Assembly (NCBI GenBank): GCA_964531715.1
Contig: CAZHEE010000002.1
Location: forward strand, 97,676 to 161,675
DNA: 64,000 bases
Direction of reading: 5' to 3'
DNA from: an uncultured Micavibrio sp.
GTDB lineage: Bacteria; Pseudomonadota; Alphaproteobacteria; Micavibrionales; UBA1664
Shown here piece after piece: positions 45,370 through 59,278 of the stretch; position 1 is the stretch's first letter, and each line of letters opens with the position of its first letter. Position numbers and translations under genes: made by a program. The notes beneath the pieces are model-generated. The model did not search any database, had not been told where the DNA came from, and was given only the letters and a program-made list of their open reading frames with translations.

Positions 45370-45444
45370 GGGTTGTTAGCTCAGGGGTAGAGCACTTGCT
45401 CGACACGCAAGGGGTCACTGGTTCAATCCCAGTACAACCCACCA
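45370..45444 (+). tRNA. tRNA-Val (anticodon GAC); position 33 reads C
   Basis: 75 nt. Acceptor GGGTTGT/ACAACCC, anticodon stem CTTGC/GCAAG, loop TCGACAC, T loop TTCAATC, encoded CCA. Confidence 0.85.
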
Positions 45445-45448
45445 TTTT
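45430..45448 (+). repeat. attL: 19-bp direct repeat CAGTACAACCCACCATTTT (3' end of tRNA-Val)
   Basis: Identical 19-mer recurs at 55129..55147. Confidence 0.85.
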
Positions 45449-45612: not shown

Positions 45613-46848
45613 ATGAAATTAACGAACATAGAGTGTAAGAATGCGCCGCTTAAAAACAAGCCTTATAAGCTTGCTGATGGTGGTGGACTGTATCTTTTAA
45701 TCAATCCAAACGGATCAAAACTATGGCGTTTGAAGTATTATTTTCTTCAAAAAGAGAAAACTTTCGCCATAGGGCAATACCCCATTATAACCTTGAAAGA
45801 AGCTAGAGAAGCCCGTGAAGATGCGAAAAGGCTTATTACCAAGGGCACTGATCCCTCAAAGAATAAACAGGAAAACAAAACAGCCGCAATCAGAAACGTT
45901 GAAAATACATTTAAGGCCGTTGCATTAGAATGGCACGAAACCAAGAAAAGCGGCTGGTCGGATAATTATGCCCGTAAAATGATGCAGGGATTGGAAAAGA
46001 ACCTGTTCCCCTTCATTGGCAATCGCCCTATCAAAGACATTACACCGCCTGAATTACTAGACGTACTGCGAAAGATTGAAGGGCGCGGATCGTTGGACAT
46101 TGCGGGACGCACAAAGCAGATATGCGGACAGGTATTCCGTTATGGCATCCAAACGGGCAAATGTGAATGGGATATTGCCTTAAACCTAACAGGAGCATTA
46201 AAGACGCATAAGAAAGAGCATTTCCGTACATTAGAGACTAATCAACTGCCGGACTTCCTGCGTGCCTTGGAACGGAATGAAGCGCGGATATTTGAACGCA
46301 CACGCCGCGCCGTTTATTTATCCCTCTATACATTTTGCCGCCCAAAAGAAATTCGCATGGCACGATGGCAAGATATCGACTTTGATAACGCTCAATGGTC
46401 AATCCCTGCGGAGATCATGAAGATGAAAAAACCGCACCTTGTGCCACTATCTAAACAGGCATTGGATGTTTTACACGCCCAACGTGAAGAATTAGAGGGC
46501 GTTAAGACAGAATGGGTATTTCCTTCACAGGTGCGATTGCGTAACCCTATGAGTGATGGCACGGTCAATAAAGCGATTAAACGCCTTGGATTCGGTCAAG
46601 ATATGGTTGCCCATGGTTTTAGAGCCTTGGCACGCACTGTGATTGCAGAAAAAATAAAATACTCTGCCGAAGTTATTGAAAAACAGCTTGCCCATAAAAC
46701 AAATAATCCTCTTGGCGAAGCGTATGACAGAACACAGTTTATCGAAGAGCGTACAAAGATGATACAACATTGGGCAGATTATGTCGATGCTGTAGCACAA
46801 GAAAATAAAGTTATTCCTGTCAATTTTGGAAAATTGCTTAATGAATAA
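45613..46848 (+). CDS. int: Tyrosine integrase, P4-like (N-terminal DUF4102-type arm-binding domain)
   Basis: 411 aa: KLADGGGLYLLINPNGSKLWRLKY, and catalytic region HGFRALARTV...LAHKTNNPLGEAYDR. Confidence 0.9.
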   Translation: MKLTNIECKNAPLKNKPYKLADGGGLYLLINPNGSKLWRLKYYFLQKEKTFAIGQYPIITLKEAREAREDAKRLITKGTDPSKNKQENKTAAIRNVENTFKAVALEWHETKKSGWSDNYARKMMQGLEKNLFPFIGNRPIKDITPPELLDVLRKIEGRGSLDIAGRTKQICGQVFRYGIQTGKCEWDIALNLTGALKTHKKEHFRTLETNQLPDFLRALERNEARIFERTRRAVYLSLYTFCRPKEIRMARWQDIDFDNAQWSIPAEIMKMKKPHLVPLSKQALDVLHAQREELEGVKTEWVFPSQVRLRNPMSDGTVNKAIKRLGFGQDMVAHGFRALARTVIAEKIKYSAEVIEKQLAHKTNNPLGEAYDRTQFIEERTKMIQHWADYVDAVAQENKVIPVNFGKLLNE

Positions 46849-47473: not shown

Positions 47474-47562
47474 ACCTGACTAGTCAAAAAATTTTTGCGT
47501 AGTTTTCAGTTTTTCGCGCACATGTTCTTATGATTTCAGACAATCTAAGAAAGGAACATACC

Positions 47563-47793
47563 ATGTCTGAATTTAACACCACACAACTGCCAGAAACAGG
47601 CTATTTACGGCAATCACAACTCATACCGCATATTATACCATTCTCAGCAGCAACGCTATGGCGCGAGGTTAAGGCTGGACGTTTTCCTGCCCCGGTAAAG
47701 CTATCTTCACGCATTACCGCTTGGCGTGTTGAAGGCATTCGCGAATGGATGGGAAACCCGTTAAAATTTTGGGATCTTCAAAGTGCCTATTGA
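47563..47793 (+). CDS. alpA: AlpA-family (MerR-like HTH) phage/island regulatory protein
   Basis: 76 aa: GYLRQSQLIPHIIPFSAATLWREVKAGRFPAPVKLSSRITAWRVEGIREW. RBS AAGGAA upstream of the ATG at 47563. Confidence 0.75.
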   Translation: MSEFNTTQLPETGYLRQSQLIPHIIPFSAATLWREVKAGRFPAPVKLSSRITAWRVEGIREWMGNPLKFWDLQSAY

Positions 47794-48448
47794 AATCAAA
47801 AAACCGATTATACCAAACACTATTTATGGTCATCTTGCCATCTTAAAACTGTGTCAGATTGCAGGATATGATTATTATCTAGGAGATGCCGCAAAAAGAA
47901 CATTAATTGTCTTAGCGGGCTTTAGCGGCACTGATGGTATGTGCTATCCCTCTATATCTCAAATTGCAAAAAATTTAGGTGTTTCTCGTGCAGCAGTGCA
48001 TAGACAAATCAATATTCTAGTGAAACAAAACTATTTGAAAGCAGAAGGACGCTATTGTCCAAAAACAAAAAGAAGAAAAACCAATATATTTATCTTTAAC
48101 ACTGATTTGGCGAGACAGTATTCTTCATATCCTGAAATATTTTGTGAGAGTAATGTAACCTCTGTGGTTACATTCCTTGTAGCCGTATTATATTACATGG
48201 ATTGTTACCCCGATATGTTACAGGGGCATGAAACCTCAAAGAGTTACACAAATAAAACAGATAAAATAAAACAAAATAAAGAAACCAACTTGAATAAAAC
48301 AGATGATTTGCTTGTCGGGAGGAAAAAGTTGCACGCATACGCATGGGAAAAACAAAAATCTCGTCAAGAGGAGAGTAATGTAAGCGATGAAATGAAAAAT
48401 AGCTTTAAAGATTTAGACTATGAATTATCCAGTCATTTTAAATTCTAA
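47783..48448 (+). CDS. Winged-helix DNA-binding protein (possible island replication/regulation protein)
   Basis: 221 aa. HTH-like SISQIAKNLGVSRAAVHRQINILVKQNYLK. GTG start overlapping alpA. Confidence 0.45.
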   Translation: MPIEIKKPIIPNTIYGHLAILKLCQIAGYDYYLGDAAKRTLIVLAGFSGTDGMCYPSISQIAKNLGVSRAAVHRQINILVKQNYLKAEGRYCPKTKRRKTNIFIFNTDLARQYSSYPEIFCESNVTSVVTFLVAVLYYMDCYPDMLQGHETSKSYTNKTDKIKQNKETNLNKTDDLLVGRKKLHAYAWEKQKSRQEESNVSDEMKNSFKDLDYELSSHFKF

Positions 48449-48567: not shown

Positions 48568-49176
48568 GTGTGGATACATGAACTTTTTTATTCAGAATTA
48601 CCACATTATTTCGGTAAAAAAATGCAGTTAGTGACACACAGCAGTAAATATGGATATCGCCGTATGACGGTTGAGGATCTGGATTGTATCACTGTCGCAG
48701 ACTGCAAAAAAGGTTACTGTAATATTTTGTCCGGCCATCAGCGCATTTTAATATCAAAACCATCGTTATTTTCAGATGCACTGTTTATAACATTACAAAC
48801 ACAGAATTTCGACTATTTGCAGTCGATTTACCTTGAAGAGACAAAACAGCCTTTTGGTGGATCACGGCTATGGCTAAAATGCCCTGATTGCGACAGACGA
48901 TGTAACAAGCTTTATTGGCATCAATCACTATTCAGTTGCCGTGTTTGTCTTGGTTTATCTTACCGAAGCCGCCAGAGTTCATTTTTGAATTATCAGGAAC
49001 ACAAAGCTTTGAAAATTGAGCATTGGCTCGGTGAATTTTGCCACTACATGACACGCCCATTATCGGAACAAATACCATCACGGCCTAAATATATGCGTAA
49101 AAATACATATCAGAGATTGATTGTCGAACTGAATGATTGCAAATCTGGGATACAGAGCAGAAATGCCCTAATCTAG
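48568..49176 (+). CDS. Hypothetical zinc-ribbon protein
   Basis: 202 aa. CPDCDRRCNKLYWHQSLFSCRVCLGLSYRS (CxxC-N17-CxxC). Start codon uncertain. Confidence 0.45.
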   Translation: MWIHELFYSELPHYFGKKMQLVTHSSKYGYRRMTVEDLDCITVADCKKGYCNILSGHQRILISKPSLFSDALFITLQTQNFDYLQSIYLEETKQPFGGSRLWLKCPDCDRRCNKLYWHQSLFSCRVCLGLSYRSRQSSFLNYQEHKALKIEHWLGEFCHYMTRPLSEQIPSRPKYMRKNTYQRLIVELNDCKSGIQSRNALI

Positions 49177-49575
49177 TTTTGGTAAATCATCAATTCCACG
49201 ATTGCGTAAATATTTATTCATCATCAATTCAGTATCATTTGTTTCATCACTGCCATAATCTAGATCCGGAAAACGGCACATAGCCATTCGCTGGTATTTA
49301 GAACAATTTGTTTCAATAGATATGTCTGTAACATCATTTTCTTTGCAATAAACAGGCTCTATACATCTGATATCTATTCCTTCTAGTGCAAGATTTTCCC
49401 TAAAATATTTCTCAAATGTTTTAATATCCAAAGTGTTTTGAGGCTCGATGCTTTGTTTCTCTTTAAAAACAAGGAAATAATAATCGACAATAAACTGGGG
49501 ATTAAAACTGTAACGCTTAGCTAATTTTCGTGATCTTACTTGCCCTACAAATATATTATAAATTAATCTAATCAT
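49168..49575 (-). CDS. Hypothetical soluble protein (downstream gene of the two-gene cassette)
   Basis: 135 aa. The ATG overlaps the upstream gene's stop (ATGATTAG). RBS AAAGG. Confidence 0.5.
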   Translation of the reverse strand: MIRLIYNIFVGQVRSRKLAKRYSFNPQFIVDYYFLVFKEKQSIEPQNTLDIKTFEKYFRENLALEGIDIRCIEPVYCKENDVTDISIETNCSKYQRMAMCRFPDLDYGSDETNDTELMMNKYLRNRGIDDLPKLD

Positions 49576-49963
49576 GATTACCTTTCTTAAATATTAGAAT
49601 TTCTTTTTTGATGCTAAAAACAATGTGACTGACTATGACAACAGAAAAAATGCGATAAATATACACCCATGCTGGAACATTTTGACCAGATACTTCTAGT
49701 TGCCATGGATTTATTAGAGTATAAGTCAAAATGACGGTCACCAAAGATGCCACTGGATACGTTATTTTAGAAAAGTGTTTATATGTTTTTCCCAATATCC
49801 CAAGCAGTAAGCCTGTTATAAATATAGAAGGATCTAAGATAAAAGCAAAAATGCTGCCCATCATTACAGCTGCCGCATGCTTATCAACAAAAAATATTAC
49901 AAATGAAAATATAACAATTAATGGAAAAAATAGCAAATGAGGTCTCTTAAAATTCTTTAGCAT
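49568..49963 (-). CDS. Hypothetical small polytopic membrane protein (upstream gene of the cassette)
   Basis: 132 aa from the ATG at 49963 (MLKNFKRPHLLFFPLIVIF...), preceded by the RBS TAAGGAG. Several hydrophobic segments. Confidence 0.55.
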   Translation of the reverse strand: MLKNFKRPHLLFFPLIVIFSFVIFFVDKHAAAVMMGSIFAFILDPSIFITGLLLGILGKTYKHFSKITYPVASLVTVILTYTLINPWQLEVSGQNVPAWVYIYRIFSVVIVSHIVFSIKKEILIFKKGNHD

Positions 49964-49990
49964 GGTCTTTTTTCTCCTTATAATTAATAC

Positions 49991-50160
49991 GGCTACCAGA
50001 TAACTCTGGCAGCCGGGGAGTTTAGAACCATCACGTGAATGGCGTGACGTATTGACGCCATGCGCTTTTATATTTCGCCACCTCCCCGACCATAAGTCGA
50101 GAGGCAACACAGATAACGGCAGTGTCTAGAATGCCGCACGTGAAGGGTTCTAATGCCCTA
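49991..50160 (-). other. G+C-richer structured non-coding region (candidate leader RNA or recombination/binding site)
   Basis: 10-bp hairpin at 49991..50014. Hairpin ATGGCGT/ACGCCAT at 50039..50061. Long-range TAGAACC..CACGTG / CACGTG..GGTTCTA pairing. GGGGAG/CTCCCC pairing. Direct repeats CAGATAAC(N)GGCAG. Confidence 0.4.
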
Positions 50161-50263
50161 GATACGAAATCACCGCATCTATTCAGATAATCGCTTTGTG
50201 AAATCTTTAAGTCAACCTAAATTAAGCATATTAAATTAATTTGGTTTAAAACAATATACGTAA

Positions 50264-50404
50264 CATCAACCGCCTGAATTTCTAAATGCCGTTCGTCAAA
50301 ATTTAGGACATTCATCTATTGATACGACGCTATCCAGTTATGGGCGATTATCTTCGTATGACCAGCGCAGGATTATCGCCGAAAACAAAGGGCAATTCGC
50401 TTGA
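50264..50404 (+). pseudogene. C-terminal remnant of a second tyrosine recombinase
   Basis: Translates to ...NAVRQNLGHSSIDTTLSSYGRLSSYDQRRIIAENKGQFA*. LGHSSIDTT..Y is the box II / catalytic Tyr region. No upstream catalytic domain is present. Confidence 0.65.
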
Positions 50405-50653
50405 TCGCATGGGAGGGGCAATTTAACCGATGCCCCTATTCCACAAAAAATACAAACATGTCACCATAACATCATCAAATATCAAAATAATAGAATCCTA
50501 TGACCGAAGAACAAAAACAACGCCTTGACCGCAATATAAATTTGTAAGTTTTATCTATGAAAACATTACTGCTTAAAAATCGGAAAGCATGCTGTAAAAT
50601 AAAAGCCGCATCATTAACTATTTCTTTAATGTTTACATATTATATTACTTTTT

Positions 50654-51229
50654 ATGGAGGAATATTACACACAAAAAGACATTGCGGATCAGTGGCAAAA
50701 AATATCGGATGAAGCGATAAAGAAAGCCGGTGAAAGCAAAAGCGATTTTCGTGCCGATGCAGTTTATATAGGAGGTATGACGGTCATTGGGGGCGGGTTG
50801 ATTGCCACCTTAAATGGTGGTCAATTATCATCTCTGTTTCTTGCGGCGGCGGCATTGACTGGTGTTTTATATTCTCATGTAAAACATACATATAAGAAAA
50901 AATATTATGAGGCATTTGCCTCTCATGCATTGGATCAAAAAGATAATAGCATTATTTTGCAATCAGATAATCCATTGACACTTCCAAGATTTGATAAGGA
51001 AAACAAAGAATTTGGAATAAACTATAAACATCTTACAAGCGGTTTAAAAAGTATTTTCAGCCTTAGAACAGTAATTGTCGCGGCAGTGGTTGGCACATCG
51101 GTTATGGCATATATGCATCCAGATAAAGAGCAACCAGATATATTACGACCAGAAGAAAAGGAAACCAATGCTACCCAAGGATCCTTTTCGGCACCGAAGA
51201 CATCTCTGCGTCCTGTCCCTCATCCATAG
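50654..51229 (+). CDS. Hypothetical membrane protein
   Basis: 191 aa. Two central hydrophobic helices (GGMTVIGGGLIATL..LFLAAAALTGVLY) and a third near residue 145. Confidence 0.4.
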   Translation: MEEYYTQKDIADQWQKISDEAIKKAGESKSDFRADAVYIGGMTVIGGGLIATLNGGQLSSLFLAAAALTGVLYSHVKHTYKKKYYEAFASHALDQKDNSIILQSDNPLTLPRFDKENKEFGINYKHLTSGLKSIFSLRTVIVAAVVGTSVMAYMHPDKEQPDILRPEEKETNATQGSFSAPKTSLRPVPHP

Positions 51230-51413
51230 AAACAGTATTTTCAAACCAATCGATAATGGATGGAATATTTTTACCGACATAAGCACATCCGCCAACAAAG
51301 ACTGCCGCTATTGCAATAATAGCCAGAAATTCTTTGACCTGCATATGGGGCACACCATCATCTTTGAGACGGTCATTAAAAGCATCTTTTGCCTTATTGA
51401 TAAAACTTTGCAT
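51171..51413 (-). CDS. Hypothetical single-pass membrane protein
   Basis: 80 aa with one TM (FLAIIAIAAVFVGGCAYV). Convergent with, and overlapping, the 3' end of 50654..51229. Confidence 0.3.
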   Translation of the reverse strand: MQSFINKAKDAFNDRLKDDGVPHMQVKEFLAIIAIAAVFVGGCAYVGKNIPSIIDWFENTVSMDEGQDAEMSSVPKRILG

Positions 51414-51549
51414 GATGTTTTATCCTATATAATATGAAAAAAGTCAACCTTTTCTAATAGAGTGTCAGTAAAAATTGAGTGCATAAAACATAATTAATTC
51501 TTATAAGTAAAAGTAGTTTGCATTATCTATCATAAAAAGGATTTATAAA

Positions 51550-51819
51550 ATGAATGAAATACCAGAAATGATTAGCCGCAATGGCGACCCTATTGAAATA
51601 GCTGAAATGAAAAATTTCTTTAACTACGCAATAAAAGAAAGGGTAAACCAATATATCACGGAAATATTTTACGATTCAAAAAGCAATCTTTGTGAAGTAA
51701 AACTTTCTGAATTGGTTGTTTATGGCGACCCTATCTATCAAAAAATTCATAGTCTTGCAAAAGTTACGATCAAACAATTCAGTATTTTAGACCAAATTGA
51801 CCATTCTGTATTTTCTTGA
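51550..51819 (+). CDS. Hypothetical protein
   Basis: 89-aa ORF with RBS AAAGGA upstream. No motif recognised. Confidence 0.35.
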   Translation: MNEIPEMISRNGDPIEIAEMKNFFNYAIKERVNQYITEIFYDSKSNLCEVKLSELVVYGDPIYQKIHSLAKVTIKQFSILDQIDHSVFS

Positions 51820-51829
51820 TACGTCAATA

Positions 51830-54800
51830 TCACTTTGGTAAAAAGTCTATTTTGTCTATCTCTTGCATTACGCTTGCGGTGTCGCGGAGGGCGATTACTA
51901 TGCGTTGGTAGTGCATAATGTCATCAACCGATAGATTGCGCCCTTTGCGGTCTTTGAGCCATTTTTGCGCGGGTTGGTATCCACCGATATAAAAGTCCCA
52001 TGCACCTTGTGGCACTTCGCCGAAATATTGGGTTTCGTTGATATAGACTTTGCCGTCTTCATATCGTGGCTTGACAACCTCGTGATCGCCATCAATGGGA
52101 TAGGTTGTGATGGGTATATCTAGCGCGGATGATTCCATCAAATGCAGGGCACGAAGTTTTGCCCCTTGCTCAACCAGCGCATTATAACTTTTAACATCAT
52201 TAGGAAACGGAATACGCGGAAAGTCCGATTTTAAAAATTCGGCATAGCGTGCGCGGTATGCAGACGCATGAAGCACAGCATAAATATAATCAAACAGGCT
52301 TTCCGGCGTCACATCGGGTATGGCCATTTTAATCTTGGCGTATATTTTTGGATCGAAATTCGGAACTTTCTGCTCTACCCCATCCATGAGTAATTCATAG
52401 CGATAGAGGGGGAAAGTACAACTAATTTCAGATGTTCTGTTTGAAACAAGTGAACTTTCAACAATTCCCTTATGAATAAAAACATGGTGAAAATCCGATG
52501 ATTTTTGCTGTTTGGAGACGTTCAATCCGATATTGCCCTTATTTAGCATATGCTTCATTACTTCGCCTCTAGGCATACAATGAAACCCTTTTGATTTGCC
52601 TGTGAAATAAGTCCACTTATTATCAAATGGTCTATATGCAATTTTTTGAATATTTTCTGGATCAAGATTTGTATCTTTTAGTTCTTTTTGTGCTAAATCT
52701 ACTTTCCAATCACGGGCATCTTTACCCAAACTATATTTGGCTCTTGCATCCTCAACAGGCAAAGAAGAAAAATCATGAATAGTATTTAATAAACTTTCTT
52801 TTGTTTCGTAAATTGTAAATTTGTCACGCGCGGTTACAATGCCGACAGAATTACACGGGAACATTTTATCGAGAGAAAAACCTTTCTCATATTCGGCCAG
52901 AGTTTTAAAATCCTTGGGAACCATAAAATATTGAGGGTTTGCGGGGTTTAATACGTTCCATTTTATGTTTTGGATATTTGTTTTTTCCAATTCGTTATAT
53001 TTAGATTGACGATGACCCCACACATCAACATGGTGAATGATTGCCAAATCCTTACTTTTTTTATCGCTTTTGACCGCAATCATAATTGCAACACCAGCTT
53101 GAATATCAAAAATATTTTGATCAATGTCGCCCGATGGCGTAGTCTCTTTCTTTTTAGAATTACCATGAAGGTCGATGATATAAATATCATCAAAAGTATT
53201 CATTAAATGCCAACGCATCCCACGGAATGTTGGATTATCTAAATATGAATGGCTTGTAATATAAGCCAAAACGCCTTCGCCATTTTTTTCGACGTAATGC
53301 TCGCCCATGCGAATAAATTTGGCGTAATCATCATTAAGCCATTTGGAATTTTTCTCCTGTAACTTAATTTTTCCACCAGGCTCTTTCTTATAATCATCCA
53401 TAAGGGACATAATCCAATCACCCTTGTTTGAGCTTTCACCACTATAAGGCGGATTCCCAAATGCTACCATGATCGGCATATCGCGTTTGATACGGCTGGC
53501 CTCGTTTGCTTCCCTTGATAACCATGATGCGAATAATGTATCGGCATCGGGGTGGTGTTCCTCCAGCGCGTTTGTCAGATACACGCCAACCCTTGGTGGA
53601 TTGTTCGGGTTGGATGGTTTATATCCTGTTTCCTGTAGCAATAAATCCAATTTCATGTGGCACATGGCGTAGGAGGCCATGAGTAATTCAAAACCGTGCA
53701 GACGTGGCAACAAGTCGTTTTCGACGTAACTGCTCCATATACCTTGTTGTCCTTGATATTTTTGCCAGATTTGTTTCACGGCCTCCGCCATGAATGTGCC
53801 TGTCCCCGTTGCAACGTCCAGTAATTGCACCTTGTGGACTTCTATTTCATCCTTAATCTTTCCCTTTTTACCAACGCGGTCAGATTCGACCTTGATTTTG
53901 ATTTTGGATTTATCGGCAATGCCGTTTGGTAAATCGAAATGGATTTTTAAAACATCATCAATGGCGCGAACAATGAAATTAACGACTGGTTCGGGCGTGT
54001 ACCAAACCCGCGTGCCTTACGCAAGGATTTATCGTATTCGGCCAAGAATGTTTCATAGAAATGCAGGATAGGGTCATTCTGCCCCGTTGCCGTTCCAAAA
54101 TCCTTTAATACCGCATCCAAATCGGAAAATAAGAAGACTTCGCATAGTGCATCAACAATCCAAACGACTCGTTCATCCAATTCCGACCCTGCCACGTATA
54201 AAAATAGCTGGCGTAAGAATGGGTTTGATTTTGGGATGAGTAGTAACGCTTCGCTTCGTGAGAAATTATCGGGCGTTGTATCGTGCAGGCGTGCCGTGAA
54301 CAAGCCATAGGCGATTGTTTGGGCATAGACATCGGCAAATTGCTCTTCGTCCATGTCATGCACAAGGATATTTTGAAATGCCTTTAATTGATCTTTTAAT
54401 GAACTATCCGCTTCATCCGTTAAAACCAGCATAAAGACATGTTTCATCAATTTGGCCTTTTGCGCCATCATGGATGCCAGTTTCTTTGCCGATTTAATTG
54501 TTTGCCCTTGGAATGATGCAAAATCGATTAAGAGTGTTTTAAGGCGGTCATAGTTTTCAGGGATGGGTTGGATGGTATCGCCAACAATTTCGGCAATTTG
54601 AACCACCTCAACTTTTTTCACCATGAAGGTAAAAGCGAAATTCTAAATAATCGGTCAGGACAAGGTTATCGAGTGACTCAAGGTATCGTTTTAATTGATC
54701 CGTTTTTTCAGTTTTGGATAGGTCAATGCCAACATCCTTGGCCTCCAAATACCCAACATCAATTTTACGCCTGTGCAGGATAAAATCAGGCGCACCACAT

Positions 54801-54946
54801 TTTATATGCGCTGGATCATTAATTGCCGTTACATCGTCCAATAATTCCTCTAATAGGGTTTTTAACGCAGGCCGATAGGCGTGTTCACGCGCTATGCCGG
54901 TTTTGAATTGTTTTTGAACATCCTCAATGTATCTTTGTATCGGCAT
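51830..54946 (-). pseudogene. Single-chain Type IIG-like restriction-modification enzyme (PD-ExK nuclease + N6-adenine methyltransferase + C-terminal specificity domain), disrupted by two frameshifts
   Basis: Three consecutive ORFs: 54946..54608, 54624..53947 and 53830..51830. N-terminal nuclease motif APDF...YLEAKD. MTase motif I LLDVATGTGTF and motif IV FGNPPYSGES. C-terminal GGYQPAQKWLKDRKGR block. Frame breaks at the T6 run 54613..54618 and the C3 run 54007..54009. Confidence 0.75.
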
Positions 54947-55128: not shown

Positions 55129-55147
55129 CAGTACAACCCACCATTTT
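55129..55147 (+). repeat. attR: 19-bp direct repeat CAGTACAACCCACCATTTT
   Basis: Identical to 45430..45448. It is preceded by a degenerate T-arm-like stretch (CTTCAATTAACCAGTAG). Confidence 0.85.
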
Positions 55148-56993: not shown

Positions 56994-57662
56994 TCAAAAA
57001 TCAATTTGTGTATAATGAACTGATGGCGCAAATCCTGGAACTCTGTCCTCCAGCAAGGCCTTAAATGATGGGCGCGATTTCAGGCGCGAATACCATTCTT
57101 TTGCGACAGGGTGTGACTCCCACGGAACATCGCCCATATAATCGATTGCGGACAAATGTGCCGCCGCCGCCAGATCGGCGTAGCTTACTGAATCCCCTGC
57201 AAGCCAACGCCGCCGCTCGATAAGGAAAGCCAGATAATCGAGGTGATAATGAATATTGGCATGGCCGGCACGGACTGACGGGCCATGAGGCTCCCCCGAT
57301 TTTAAAAAGCGTTTCATCATCTTCTCGCCAATCAGATATTCAGTGACTTCGCGGTTGAATTTGACATCAAACCACCCGACAATACGTCGTACTTCAGCGC
57401 GGGAAACCGAGTCATCGCCCAACAGTGAAATTTCAGGATAGACCTCATCCAGATACTCGCAAATAACGGTCGAATTTGACAGGATTGTCCCATCCTCCTC
57501 AATCATCAAAGGCACATCGCCTGCCGGATTCATCGCCATATATTCCGTGCGCCGTTCCCATGTTTTTTCAATCACGGTTTCAAAGCGCAGGTTCTTCTCG
57601 GCAAGTGAAAGGCGCACTTTTCGTGAGAATGGATGAAGCCAAAGGTGAAACAGAGTTCTCAT
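56994..57662 (-). CDS. Glutathione S-transferase family protein
   Basis: 222 aa. Thioredoxin-like N-domain (FSRKVRLSLAEKNL, VPLMIEEDGTILSNSTVICEYL) and a helical C-domain. Confidence 0.75.
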   Translation of the reverse strand: MRTLFHLWLHPFSRKVRLSLAEKNLRFETVIEKTWERRTEYMAMNPAGDVPLMIEEDGTILSNSTVICEYLDEVYPEISLLGDDSVSRAEVRRIVGWFDVKFNREVTEYLIGEKMMKRFLKSGEPHGPSVRAGHANIHYHLDYLAFLIERRRWLAGDSVSYADLAAAAHLSAIDYMGDVPWESHPVAKEWYSRLKSRPSFKALLEDRVPGFAPSVHYTQIDF

Positions 57663-59037: not shown

Positions 59038-59278
59038 TCCTGCCTCAAACCCTCTTGACCACATTAAAATGCGGCTAGAGAGCCTGAATAATACTGAGTT
59101 TATGGCTTTCGGTCTCGATGGATTAAGCTATATTAAGCCAATTAATGACCCTGATGATTTGGGGTCTTCCTACGCGCTATACAGTGCAAATGGAAGGCAA
59201 ATTGCTGTCGGACATGATGTTAATGTGCTGAAAGCCACCGCGTTACAGCAGGCTCTCATCCCGATGGTTGTTCATTAG
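59021..59278 (+). CDS. DUF1150-like protein
   Basis: 85 aa. Overlaps the hsp20 3' end. GLSYIKPI...YALYSANGRQIAV pattern and the usual position after alphaproteobacterial hsp20. Confidence 0.5.
   Translation: MGSMNNPASNPLDHIKMRLESLNNTEFMAFGLDGLSYIKPINDPDDLGSSYALYSANGRQIAVGHDVNVLKATALQQALIPMVVH

What the first reader, a model, noticed from the sequence alone, without database searches (positions are those of the whole stretch)
51830..54946. ~1040-codon Type IIG-like RM gene split into three ORFs by frameshifts at homopolymer runs
Joined together, the three ORFs give one protein. It has a PD-ExK nuclease (APDF...YLEAKD), a helical linker, a gamma-class N6-adenine methyltransferase (DVATGTGTF, NPPY) and a specificity domain ending in the QKWLKDRKGR block. 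Break 1 lies in a T6 run (54613..54618): ...LHGEKS* versus MVKKVEVV, and removing one T restores ...HGEKVEVV. Break 2 lies at CCC (54007..54009): adding one C restores ...LRKARGVWYTPEPVVNFIV..., the canonical (R/K)xxGVxYTP motif. Either the gene is decaying, or the reads contain homopolymer errors, or at least the 6-nt tract acts as a slippage-prone on/off switch, as in phase-variable RM systems. If the enzyme is inactive the island has lost its defence function. If it is switchable, methylome heterogeneity is expected.
Basis: partly seen in the sequence, partly recalled or inferred. Interest (0 to 1): 0.55.

Follow-up and report, generated by a model that had tools for sequence, protein, structure and literature searches.

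The report
Frameshift-inactivated DrdV-like restriction-modification gene
A single-chain restriction-modification (phage-defence) gene, carried on a 9.7-kb mobile island inserted at a tRNA gene of an uncultured alphaproteobacterium, has been knocked out by two one-base indels; it looks like an ordinary, recently dead gene and not an on/off switch.

Summary
On the minus strand, 54946..51830 holds three consecutive ORFs (112, 225 and 666 aa). Removing one A from an A6 run and adding one base at GGG gives a stop-free 1038-aa protein. This protein aligns without gaps to more than 100 intact homologs of about 1040 aa. It is a DrdV-like Type IIL/IIG enzyme: an N-terminal PD-(D/E)xK nuclease, a helical connector, a gamma-class N6-adenine methyltransferase and a Type-ISP-like specificity domain, with no ATPase motor. 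It is the last gene of a tRNA-Val-integrated island (attL 45430-45448, attR 55129-55147).

Three JGI metagenome assemblies carry the same two indels, and an NCBI record carries an identical C-terminal fragment. No intact allele closer than 78% identity was found among 5.8 billion protein clusters. A random sequencing error is therefore unlikely.

The tracts (A6, G3) are far below phase-variation lengths and are common: the window holds 131 A/T runs of 6 or more. Intact relatives carry A5 and GGC/GGT at these sites, and both sites would have to revert together to restore the gene.

Apart from the indels the sequence is undecayed, so inactivation is recent. Verdict: an ordinary recent pseudogene of a known enzyme family, of low interest.

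The parts
51830..54946 (-). Whole disrupted DrdV-like Type IIL/IIG restriction-modification gene (1038 codons once repaired)
54608..54946 (-). ORF1, 112 aa: N-terminal PD-(D/E)xK nuclease domain, truncated before its last strands. Catalytic D54 at 54787-54785, E68 at 54745-54743, K70 at 54739-54737
   Evidence: D54, E68 and K70 are invariant in 49 homologs. AF2 model pLDDT 89.6 with alpha-beta-beta-beta-alpha-beta topology. Best fold match is the DrdV N-terminal region (TMq 0.74, rmsd 3.5 A). The weaker hits are dominated by PD-(D/E)xK nucleases
54613..54618 (-). Break 1: A6 on the coding strand (T6 on +), a one-base insertion. Four intact relatives have GAA AAA GTx (A5) here
53947..54624 (-). 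ORF2, 225 aa: helical connector between nuclease and methyltransferase (repaired residues 112-313), followed by an out-of-frame tail
   Evidence: PADLOC REase_MTase_IIG profile positions 119-319. All-helical in the AF2 model
54007..54009 (-). Break 2: GGG on the coding strand (CCC on +), a one-base deletion inside codon G313 and directly before motif X (GVWYTP). Intact relatives have GGC or GGT followed by GTx
51830..54006 (-). Third frame segment (annotated ORF3 starts at GTG 53830): gamma-class N6-adenine methyltransferase plus specificity domain. Motif I DVATGTGTF at 53818-53792; motif IV NPPY at 53455-53444
   Evidence: Pfam N6_Mtase and Eco57I hits. PDB sequence hits to DrdV, LlaGI and LlaBIII. 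Motif residues invariant, apart from V378
51863..52864 (-). C-terminal target-recognition domain (Pfam Type_ISP_C, residues 695-1028), including the QKWLKDRKGR block
   Evidence: Pfam E = 6.5e-89
45370..45444 (+). tRNA-Val(gac), the integration target of the island; its 3' end forms attL
45430..45448 (+). attL: 19-nt direct repeat CAGTACAACCCACCATTTT
   Evidence: family D2
55129..55147 (+). attR: second copy of the 19-nt repeat, 183 nt beyond the RM start codon
   Evidence: family D2
45613..46848 (+). P4-type tyrosine integrase of the island (411 aa, intact)
   Evidence: Pfam Arm-DNA-bind_3 and Phage_integrase. PHROG integrase 2e-63
47530..48448 (+). AlpA-like excisionase/regulator (47530-47793) and HTH_36 replication-initiator-like protein (47783-48448)

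Best explanation
This is a recently inactivated gene for a DrdV-like Type IIL/IIG single-chain restriction-modification enzyme. It is carried as cargo at the attR end of a 9.7-kb island integrated at tRNA-Val in an uncultured alphaproteobacterium.

By homology, the intact ancestor would have bound an asymmetric site through its C-terminal Type-ISP-like specificity domain. It would have methylated one adenine with its gamma-class methyltransferase. It would have cut unmodified DNA at a fixed distance with its N-terminal PD-(D/E)xK nuclease after oligomerising on several sites, as shown for DrdV.

Two ordinary one-base indels now break the reading frame. The first is +1 A in an A5 run after codon 111. 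The second is -1 nt in codon 313. The first separates most of the nuclease domain from the rest of the protein. The second cuts methyltransferase motif X (GVWYTP) away from motifs I-VIII and the specificity domain. No product can therefore combine DNA recognition with a complete catalytic domain, and both restriction and methylation are predicted to be lost.

Shown: the gene's identity, both indels, their recurrence in independent assemblies, and the absence of any further decay.

Inferred: loss of activity, and the recency of the event. Losing nuclease and methylase together in a fused enzyme is non-toxic. This makes such knock-outs easy to fix, possibly soon after the island arrived in this host.
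For: Identity:
- Pfam Type_ISP_C 6.5e-89, N6_Mtase and Eco57I.
- PADLOC REase_MTase_IIG 2.8e-220.
- PDB sequence hit to DrdV, 5e-40, and 2.5e-63 with a profile.
- The full-length AF2 model (pLDDT 81) best matches DrdV over its whole length, E = 2e-40. LlaBIII/LlaGI, MmeI and BrxX follow.
- The nuclease-domain model matches the DrdV N-terminus, TMq 0.74.

Indels:
- The repaired protein aligns without gaps to intact homologs.
- Intact relatives carry A5 and GGC/GGT at the two sites.

Real, not random error:
- The same three ORFs occur in JGI samples 3300040801 (71.8-kb contig, 6 SNPs against the window, all outside the gene), 3300040789 and 3300040788.
- An NCBI record holds a C-terminal fragment 100% identical to the window protein.
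- The rest of the window is 91% coding with full-length housekeeping genes: ClpB 1-853/853, lipoamide dehydrogenase 1-461/461, plus CckA and MgtE matched nearly end to end.

Recent:
- The repaired protein deviates at 1 of 184 invariant columns and 2 of 277 columns that are >=95% conserved. Intact homologs average 1.0 and 5.0.
- pN is low while pS is saturated, as in intact-intact pairs.

Not a switch:
- The window has 131 A/T runs >=6 and 977 G/C runs >=3. The gene itself has two in-frame A7 runs.
- Published cut-offs are poly-A/T >=10 and poly-G/C >=7 (PMC6321876).
- The phase-variable Type IIG gene cj0031 uses G9/G10 (PMC4889913).

Base rate: 2 of 9 evaluable family loci in reference genomes are also disrupted.
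Against: - No reads were available, so minority intact variants in the population cannot be excluded.
- All three JGI samples have neighbouring IDs and are nearly clonal (99.97-100% identical). They may therefore represent one population and one sequencing platform, which I could not identify.
- The complete lack of degenerative substitutions also fits a gene that is still under selection.
- Two indels with no other lesion is a slightly odd pattern for neutral decay. However, the expected number of hits at conserved positions for so young a pseudogene is only about two.
Confidence: 0.8

Rival explanations
1. Sequencing or assembly artefact: the true gene is intact, and both indels are systematic homopolymer miscalls reproduced in every assembly.
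For: Break 1 lies in a homopolymer. All assemblies come from closely related samples, and the platform is unknown. One other family locus, from a long-read-polished MAG (L014), has multiple frame changes.
Against: Both indels appear in the assemblies of three different JGI samples, and an NCBI record carries an identical C-terminal fragment. The indels have opposite signs, and one sits in a run of only three bases. The window has 130 other A/T runs >=6, including A8 and T9 runs, with no other broken genes. The JGI contig numbering, in the millions, suggests short-read assemblies; that is my inference.
Confidence: 0.08
2. Contingency (phase-variation) switch: slippage in the A6 tract, with or without the G3 tract, toggles the enzyme on and off and produces methylome heterogeneity.
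For: Phase-variable Type IIG enzymes exist, for example cj0031 with a G9/G10 tract (PMC4889913). The gene is otherwise pristine.
Against: The tracts are far shorter than any accepted phase-variable tract and are not enriched or special. The four closest intact relatives examined at the nucleotide level have A5 and no G-run at these sites, so no hypermutable tract has been selected for. Two sites must revert together. All assemblies show the same OFF/OFF state, with no length variants.
Confidence: 0.04
3. Residual activity from fragments: ORF3, or a product re-initiated at the ATG that overlaps break 1, still acts as an orphan methyltransferase while the nuclease is lost.
For: ORF2 starts with an ATG 14 nt upstream of the ORF1 stop, so termination-reinitiation is conceivable. 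ORF3 retains motifs I-VIII and the whole specificity domain.
Against: Break 2 removes motif X (GVWYTP) and about 60 conserved residues from whatever ORF3 encodes. G313, V314, T317 and P318 are invariant and Y316 is nearly invariant. ORF3's first start codon is a GTG five codons before motif I, with no evident ribosome-binding site. No promoter signal exceeds chance.
Confidence: 0.05
4. Programmed recoding: a +1 ribosomal or transcriptional slip at GAA AAA AGU UGA and a -1 slip at GGG UUU produce a little full-length enzyme from a deliberately split gene.
For: A lysine tRNA on AAA can re-pair in the +1 frame within A6, and a stop follows one codon later. The sequence is under apparent constraint.
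Against: Neither site is a canonical slippery motif in the correct frame. Break 2 would need first-position mismatches for both tRNAs. Two different recoding events in one gene have no precedent that I know of. More than 100 homologs are encoded as single ORFs without these features.
Confidence: 0.02

Closest known systems
DrdV (Type IIL RM enzyme of Deinococcus wulumuqiensis; PDB 7lo5/7lvv)
   Same: Same length class (1029 vs 1038 aa) and the same domain order: PD-(D/E)xK nuclease, helical connector, gamma-class N6A methyltransferase and a Type-ISP-like specificity domain. It is the best sequence and fold match in the PDB over the full length. It is also the best match for the nuclease domain alone.
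   Different: Only about 20% identical. The specificity domain is divergent, so the recognition sequence is unknown. The window copy is broken by two frameshifts.
Type ISP enzymes LlaGI / LlaBIII
   Same: Homologous methyltransferase and C-terminal specificity domain (Pfam Type_ISP_C 6.5e-89; PDB hits). The DrdV paper reports this common origin (10.1101/2021.01.06.425610).
   Different: There is no RecA-like ATPase motor and no Mrr-type nuclease. The protein is 1038 aa against 1406 and 1578 aa for the solved LlaGI and LlaBIII chains. Database names such as 'type ISP restriction/modification enzyme' or 'predicted helicase' for this family are misnomers.
MmeI family (founding Type IIL/IIG family)
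   Same: Same overall architecture. By analogy, the same lone-strand methylation logic.
   Different: A much weaker structural match (Foldseek 3e-11 against 2e-40 for DrdV). No MmeI Pfam domain is hit by the window protein.
Cj0031 of Campylobacter jejuni (phase-variable Type IIG enzyme)
   Same: A single-chain RM enzyme that a one-base indel in a homopolymer splits into separate ORFs. Both activities are lost together without toxicity (PMC4889913).
   Different: Cj0031 has one dedicated G9/G10 tract that demonstrably varies within populations. Here there are two independent lesions, at A6 and G3, with no variation among assemblies.

Membership tests
Type IIL/IIG single-chain RM enzyme, DrdV-like | N-terminal PD-(D/E)xK endonuclease domain with catalytic D...(D/E)xK | tested here: met
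   D54, E68 and K70 are invariant in 49 homologs. Topology is alpha-beta-beta-beta-alpha-beta. The fold matches the DrdV N-terminus, TMq 0.74. Most of the weaker hits are PD-(D/E)xK nucleases.
Type IIL/IIG single-chain RM enzyme, DrdV-like | Gamma-class N6-adenine methyltransferase with motif X, then motif I (xxGxGxF), then motif IV (NPPY), in that order | tested here: met
   GVWYTP at 313-318, DVATGTGTF at 377-385 and NPPY at 498-501. These residues are invariant or nearly so. Pfam N6_Mtase and Eco57I hits.
Type IIL/IIG single-chain RM enzyme, DrdV-like | C-terminal target-recognition domain in the same polypeptide | tested here: met
   Pfam Type_ISP_C covers residues 695-1028, E = 6.5e-89.
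Type IIL/IIG single-chain RM enzyme, DrdV-like | All domains encoded in one uninterrupted reading frame of about 1000 codons | tested here: not met
   Two frameshifts split the gene into three ORFs. Homologs are single ORFs of about 1040 aa. The locus is therefore a pseudogene of this family and not a functional member.
Type IIL/IIG single-chain RM enzyme, DrdV-like | Methylates one strand of an asymmetric site and cuts at a fixed distance from it | not testable with these tools
   Needs biochemistry or methylome data.
Type ISP RM enzyme (LlaGI/LlaBIII) | RecA-like ATPase/translocase motor between nuclease and methyltransferase | tested here: not met
   No helicase or ATPase domain in Pfam or NCBIfam. 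Residues 129-336 form an all-helical connector. Length is 1038 aa.
Phase-variable (contingency) RM locus | Hypermutable simple-sequence repeat in the reading frame (poly-G/C >=7, poly-A/T >=10, or multi-unit repeats) | tested here: not met
   The tracts are A6 and G3. Cut-offs are from PMC6321876. The window has 131 comparable A/T runs.
Phase-variable (contingency) RM locus | Tract-length heterogeneity within or between closely related populations | tested here: inconclusive
   The JGI assemblies of three samples and the window all show A6 and GGG. Consensus assemblies cannot reveal minority variants, and reads were not available.
tRNA-integrated genomic island | Tyrosine integrase next to a tRNA gene, with a direct repeat of the tRNA 3' end at the far boundary | tested here: met
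   tRNA-Val at 45370-45444 and integrase at 45613-46848. A 19-nt repeat lies at 45430-45448 and 55129-55147. GC dips to 0.34-0.40 inside the island.

The most novel reading that the evidence does not exclude
The split is not decay. Instead it would be a way of keeping a potentially toxic single-chain RM enzyme silent on a mobile island. The pristine coding sequence would then be kept by selection, because rare slippage or recoding at the A6 site and the GGG site (or reversion after transfer to a new host) yields active enzyme. This would be a low-frequency two-lock switch that uses tracts much shorter than classical contingency loci.
Probability: 0.03. Interest if true: 0.5.

Novelty: new member of a known kind. 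Interest (0 to 1): 0.12.

Why it matters
It matters little beyond annotation. The three ORFs should be annotated as one pseudogene of a DrdV-like Type IIL enzyme. They should not be called a 'type ISP enzyme', a 'helicase' or three hypothetical proteins. The host should be predicted to lack the corresponding m6A motif and restriction barrier. The locus is a clean example of how a fused R-M enzyme on a mobile island can be lost through simple indels without post-segregational toxicity.

Tried and rejected
- Tract-length variants of this exact locus: I searched with a variable-gap pattern (TACCTTCATGGTG N{3,9} GTTGAGGTGGTTCAAATT). It gave 0 hits in metagenome contigs and 0 in viral contigs, although the pattern does match the window. 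Those collections simply do not hold this organism.
- Genome-contig scan: the source genome is not a GTDB species representative. The best hit is a 71%-identical alphaproteobacterial MAG.
- Look-up of the NCBI fragment P0036: not on record, so the NCBI accession and organism name could not be obtained.
- dN/dS on the terminal branch: synonymous sites are saturated (pS 0.54-0.82), so no branch-specific estimate is possible. I used a leave-one-out count at conserved columns instead.
- The promoter/terminator scan was no better than shuffled sequence.
- Rfam found only the four tRNAs.
- I checked whether the +1/-1 pair could be compensatory. ORF1 and ORF3 share a frame, but 15 stop codons lie between them in that frame.
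- PADLOC, Pfam and PHROGs found no other defence gene among the island's cargo ORFs.
Full report
**1. Observation**

The minus strand of 51830-54946 carries three consecutive ORFs:
- ORF1, 112 aa, 54946-54608
- ORF2, 225 aa, 54624-53947
- ORF3, 666 aa, 53830-51830

The + strand shows T6 at 54613-54618 and CCC at 54007-54009. Removing one A from the coding-strand A6 and adding one G after GGG gives a 3117-nt frame. It encodes 1038 residues with no internal stop.

The repaired protein aligns without a gap across both junctions to 35 intact homologs. This restores ...FYLHGEKVEVV... and ...LRKARGVWYTPEPVVNFIV.... ORF2 and ORF3 match successive segments of one PADLOC Type IIG profile, positions 119-319 and 553-1075 of 1096.

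One refinement is needed. The four closest intact genes read GAA AAA GTx at break 1, so the window has a +1 insertion in an A5 run. At break 2 they read CGC GGC/GGT GTx, so one base of the glycine codon was deleted. That base need not have been a G, and a three-base run is hardly a homopolymer.

**2. What the gene is**

Sequence searches:
- Pfam finds Type_ISP_C (residues 695-1028, E = 6.5e-89), N6_Mtase and Eco57I. It finds no helicase or ATPase domain.

Structure prediction:
- An AlphaFold2 model of the repaired protein (mean pLDDT 81) matches DrdV best over its whole length (Foldseek E = 2e-40). LlaBIII/LlaGI, MmeI (3e-11) and BREX BrxX/PglX follow.
- ORF1 modelled alone (pLDDT 89.6) has the alpha-beta-beta-beta-alpha-beta core of PD-(D/E)xK nucleases.
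- Its best structural match is the DrdV N-terminal region (TMq 0.74, rmsd 3.5 A). The weaker hits are dominated by PD-(D/E)xK nucleases: the EcoR124I HsdR nuclease domain, RecU/PrfA, NucS, NucC and EcoRV.

D54, E68 and K70 are invariant in 49 family members, as are the residues of motif X (G313, V314, T317, P318), motif I and NPPY.

The protein is thus a DrdV-like Type IIL/IIG enzyme: nuclease (1-~127), helical connector (~129-336), gamma-class N6A methyltransferase and a Type-ISP-like specificity domain. The DrdV paper itself notes that the DrdV and Type ISP methyltransferase and recognition modules share an origin (10.1101/2021.01.06.425610). Database names for this family, such as 'type ISP restriction/modification enzyme' and 'predicted helicase', are misleading because no motor domain is present.

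**3. Context**

- The host is an alphaproteobacterium. The window encodes the cell-cycle kinase CckA, and full-length ClpB, MgtE and lipoamide dehydrogenase.
- tRNA-Val(gac) lies at 45370-45444. A P4-type integrase follows at 45613-46848. Next come an AlpA-like gene, an HTH_36 replication-initiator-like gene and several ORFs of unknown function.
- A 19-nt repeat, CAGTACAACCCACCATTTT, occurs at the tRNA 3' end (45430-45448) and again at 55129-55147. It delimits a 9.7-kb island whose GC content dips to 0.34-0.40.
- The RM gene is the last island gene. Its start codon lies 183 nt from attR.
- An intact 77%-identical homolog (P0004) sits at the end of a comparable island, whose integrase is 39% identical to the window's.

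**4. Are the frameshifts real?**

Exact-protein look-ups recovered the same three ORFs in three JGI metagenome assemblies:
- Sample 3300040801: a 71.8-kb contig with six SNPs against the window over 18.8 kb, all outside the island, and no indels.
- Sample 3300040789: a 7.6-kb contig, identical to the window.
- Sample 3300040788: a 2.7-kb contig. It has A6 and GGG, and it differs only in its last 65 nt, where the assembly runs into another family member inside the conserved C-terminal block.

An NCBI record also carries a 653-aa C-terminal fragment that is 100% identical to the window protein.

No intact allele closer than 78% identity exists among 5.8 billion protein clusters.

The rest of the window is 91% coding and shows no other broken gene, although it holds 130 further A/T runs of six or more, including A8 and T9 runs.

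Random error is therefore excluded. A systematic platform artefact is unlikely, but it cannot be ruled out without reads.

**5. Switch or decay?**

Accepted thresholds for phase-variable tracts are poly-G/C >=7 and poly-A/T >=10 (PMC6321876). The model phase-variable Type IIG gene cj0031 uses G9/G10 (PMC4889913). Several points count against a switch here:
- The tracts are A6 and G3.
- The gene itself contains five other A/T runs of 6-7 nt that are in frame.
- Intact relatives have no expanded tract at either site.
- Both sites must revert together to restore the protein.
- All assemblies show the same state.

Neither site is a canonical slippery sequence in the required frame, so programmed recoding is improbable.

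The gene is otherwise undecayed. It deviates at 1 of 184 columns that are invariant in the other 48 family members (F921Y). It deviates at 2 of 277 columns that are >=95% conserved. Intact homologs average 1.0 and 5.0. Non-synonymous divergence is low while synonymous sites are saturated, just as in intact-intact pairs.

Disrupted copies of this family are not rare. Of nine evaluable loci in reference genomes, one is multiply frameshifted and one is a deletion remnant.

**6. Conclusion**

The most likely reading (about 0.8) is a young pseudogene.
- Break 1 removes the last strands of the nuclease domain and uncouples the nuclease from the rest of the protein.
- Break 2 severs motif X from the methyltransferase core and the specificity domain.
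- Both restriction and methylation are therefore predicted to be lost.
- Because both activities sit in one chain, this loss is non-toxic. The same point is made for cj0031.

This is an uncharacterised, inactivated member of a known family. Interest is low.

Residual possibilities are a systematic sequencing artefact (0.08), orphan methylase activity from fragments (0.05), a true phase switch (0.04) and recoding (0.02). All can be settled by read pile-ups, methylome data, or expression of the repaired and native genes.

Noticed in passing
L003 13122-13703; L006 5487-6086; L007 9108-9692 (absent from the window): A conserved SLATT_5-domain gene (193-199 aa, 70-93% identical between loci) lies immediately downstream of the intact RM gene in three of the closest relatives. 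In one case it overlaps the RM stop. The window has no trace of it by tblastn. This may be a two-gene module in the family.
   Followed up: partly
window 51830-54946 (-): The identity to relatives is mosaic. The nuclease domain is 96% identical to P0004. The connector is 93% and the methyltransferase 85% identical to P0003. The specificity domain is closest to P0001, at only 72%. This pattern suggests domain shuffling, with the specificity domain diverging fastest.
   Followed up: partly
L018 last 65 nt (window 52005-51941): The 2.7-kb contig from JGI sample 3300040788 switches to a different allele inside the conserved QKWLKDRKG block at its end. A second family member therefore appears to be present in that community, and the assembly breaks at the shared motif.
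   Followed up: partly
window 57099-57108 and 59147-59150: All six differences between the window and the 71.8-kb JGI contig fall in two tight clusters: four within 10 nt in a GST gene, and two within 4 nt in a small ORF. The rest of the 18.8-kb overlap is identical. These may be micro-recombination tracts or local assembly variants.
   Followed up: no
L014 10001-13252; L016 10001-10503: Other disrupted copies of the family exist. A Fodinibius MAG copy has at least four frame changes. The complete genome of Desulfonema magnum 4be13 keeps only a remnant, joining about 60 N-terminal residues to about 130 C-terminal residues.
   Followed up: partly
window 48622-51819: Six island cargo ORFs (184, 135, 180, 191, 80 and 89 aa) have no Pfam match above the curated cut-off and no PADLOC match. 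The only PHROG match is one family of unknown function, for the 89-aa ORF. The 135-aa and 180-aa ORFs overlap by 8 nt on the minus strand. Their function is unknown.
   Followed up: partly
L003 13704-17537: The island that carries the intact homolog P0004 has two tyrosine recombinase genes: a 336-aa Phage_integrase and a 409-aa P4-type integrase that is 39% identical to the window's. It also has an AlpA gene. A relaxase/NikA pair lies just beyond, which suggests a mobilisable element.
   Followed up: no
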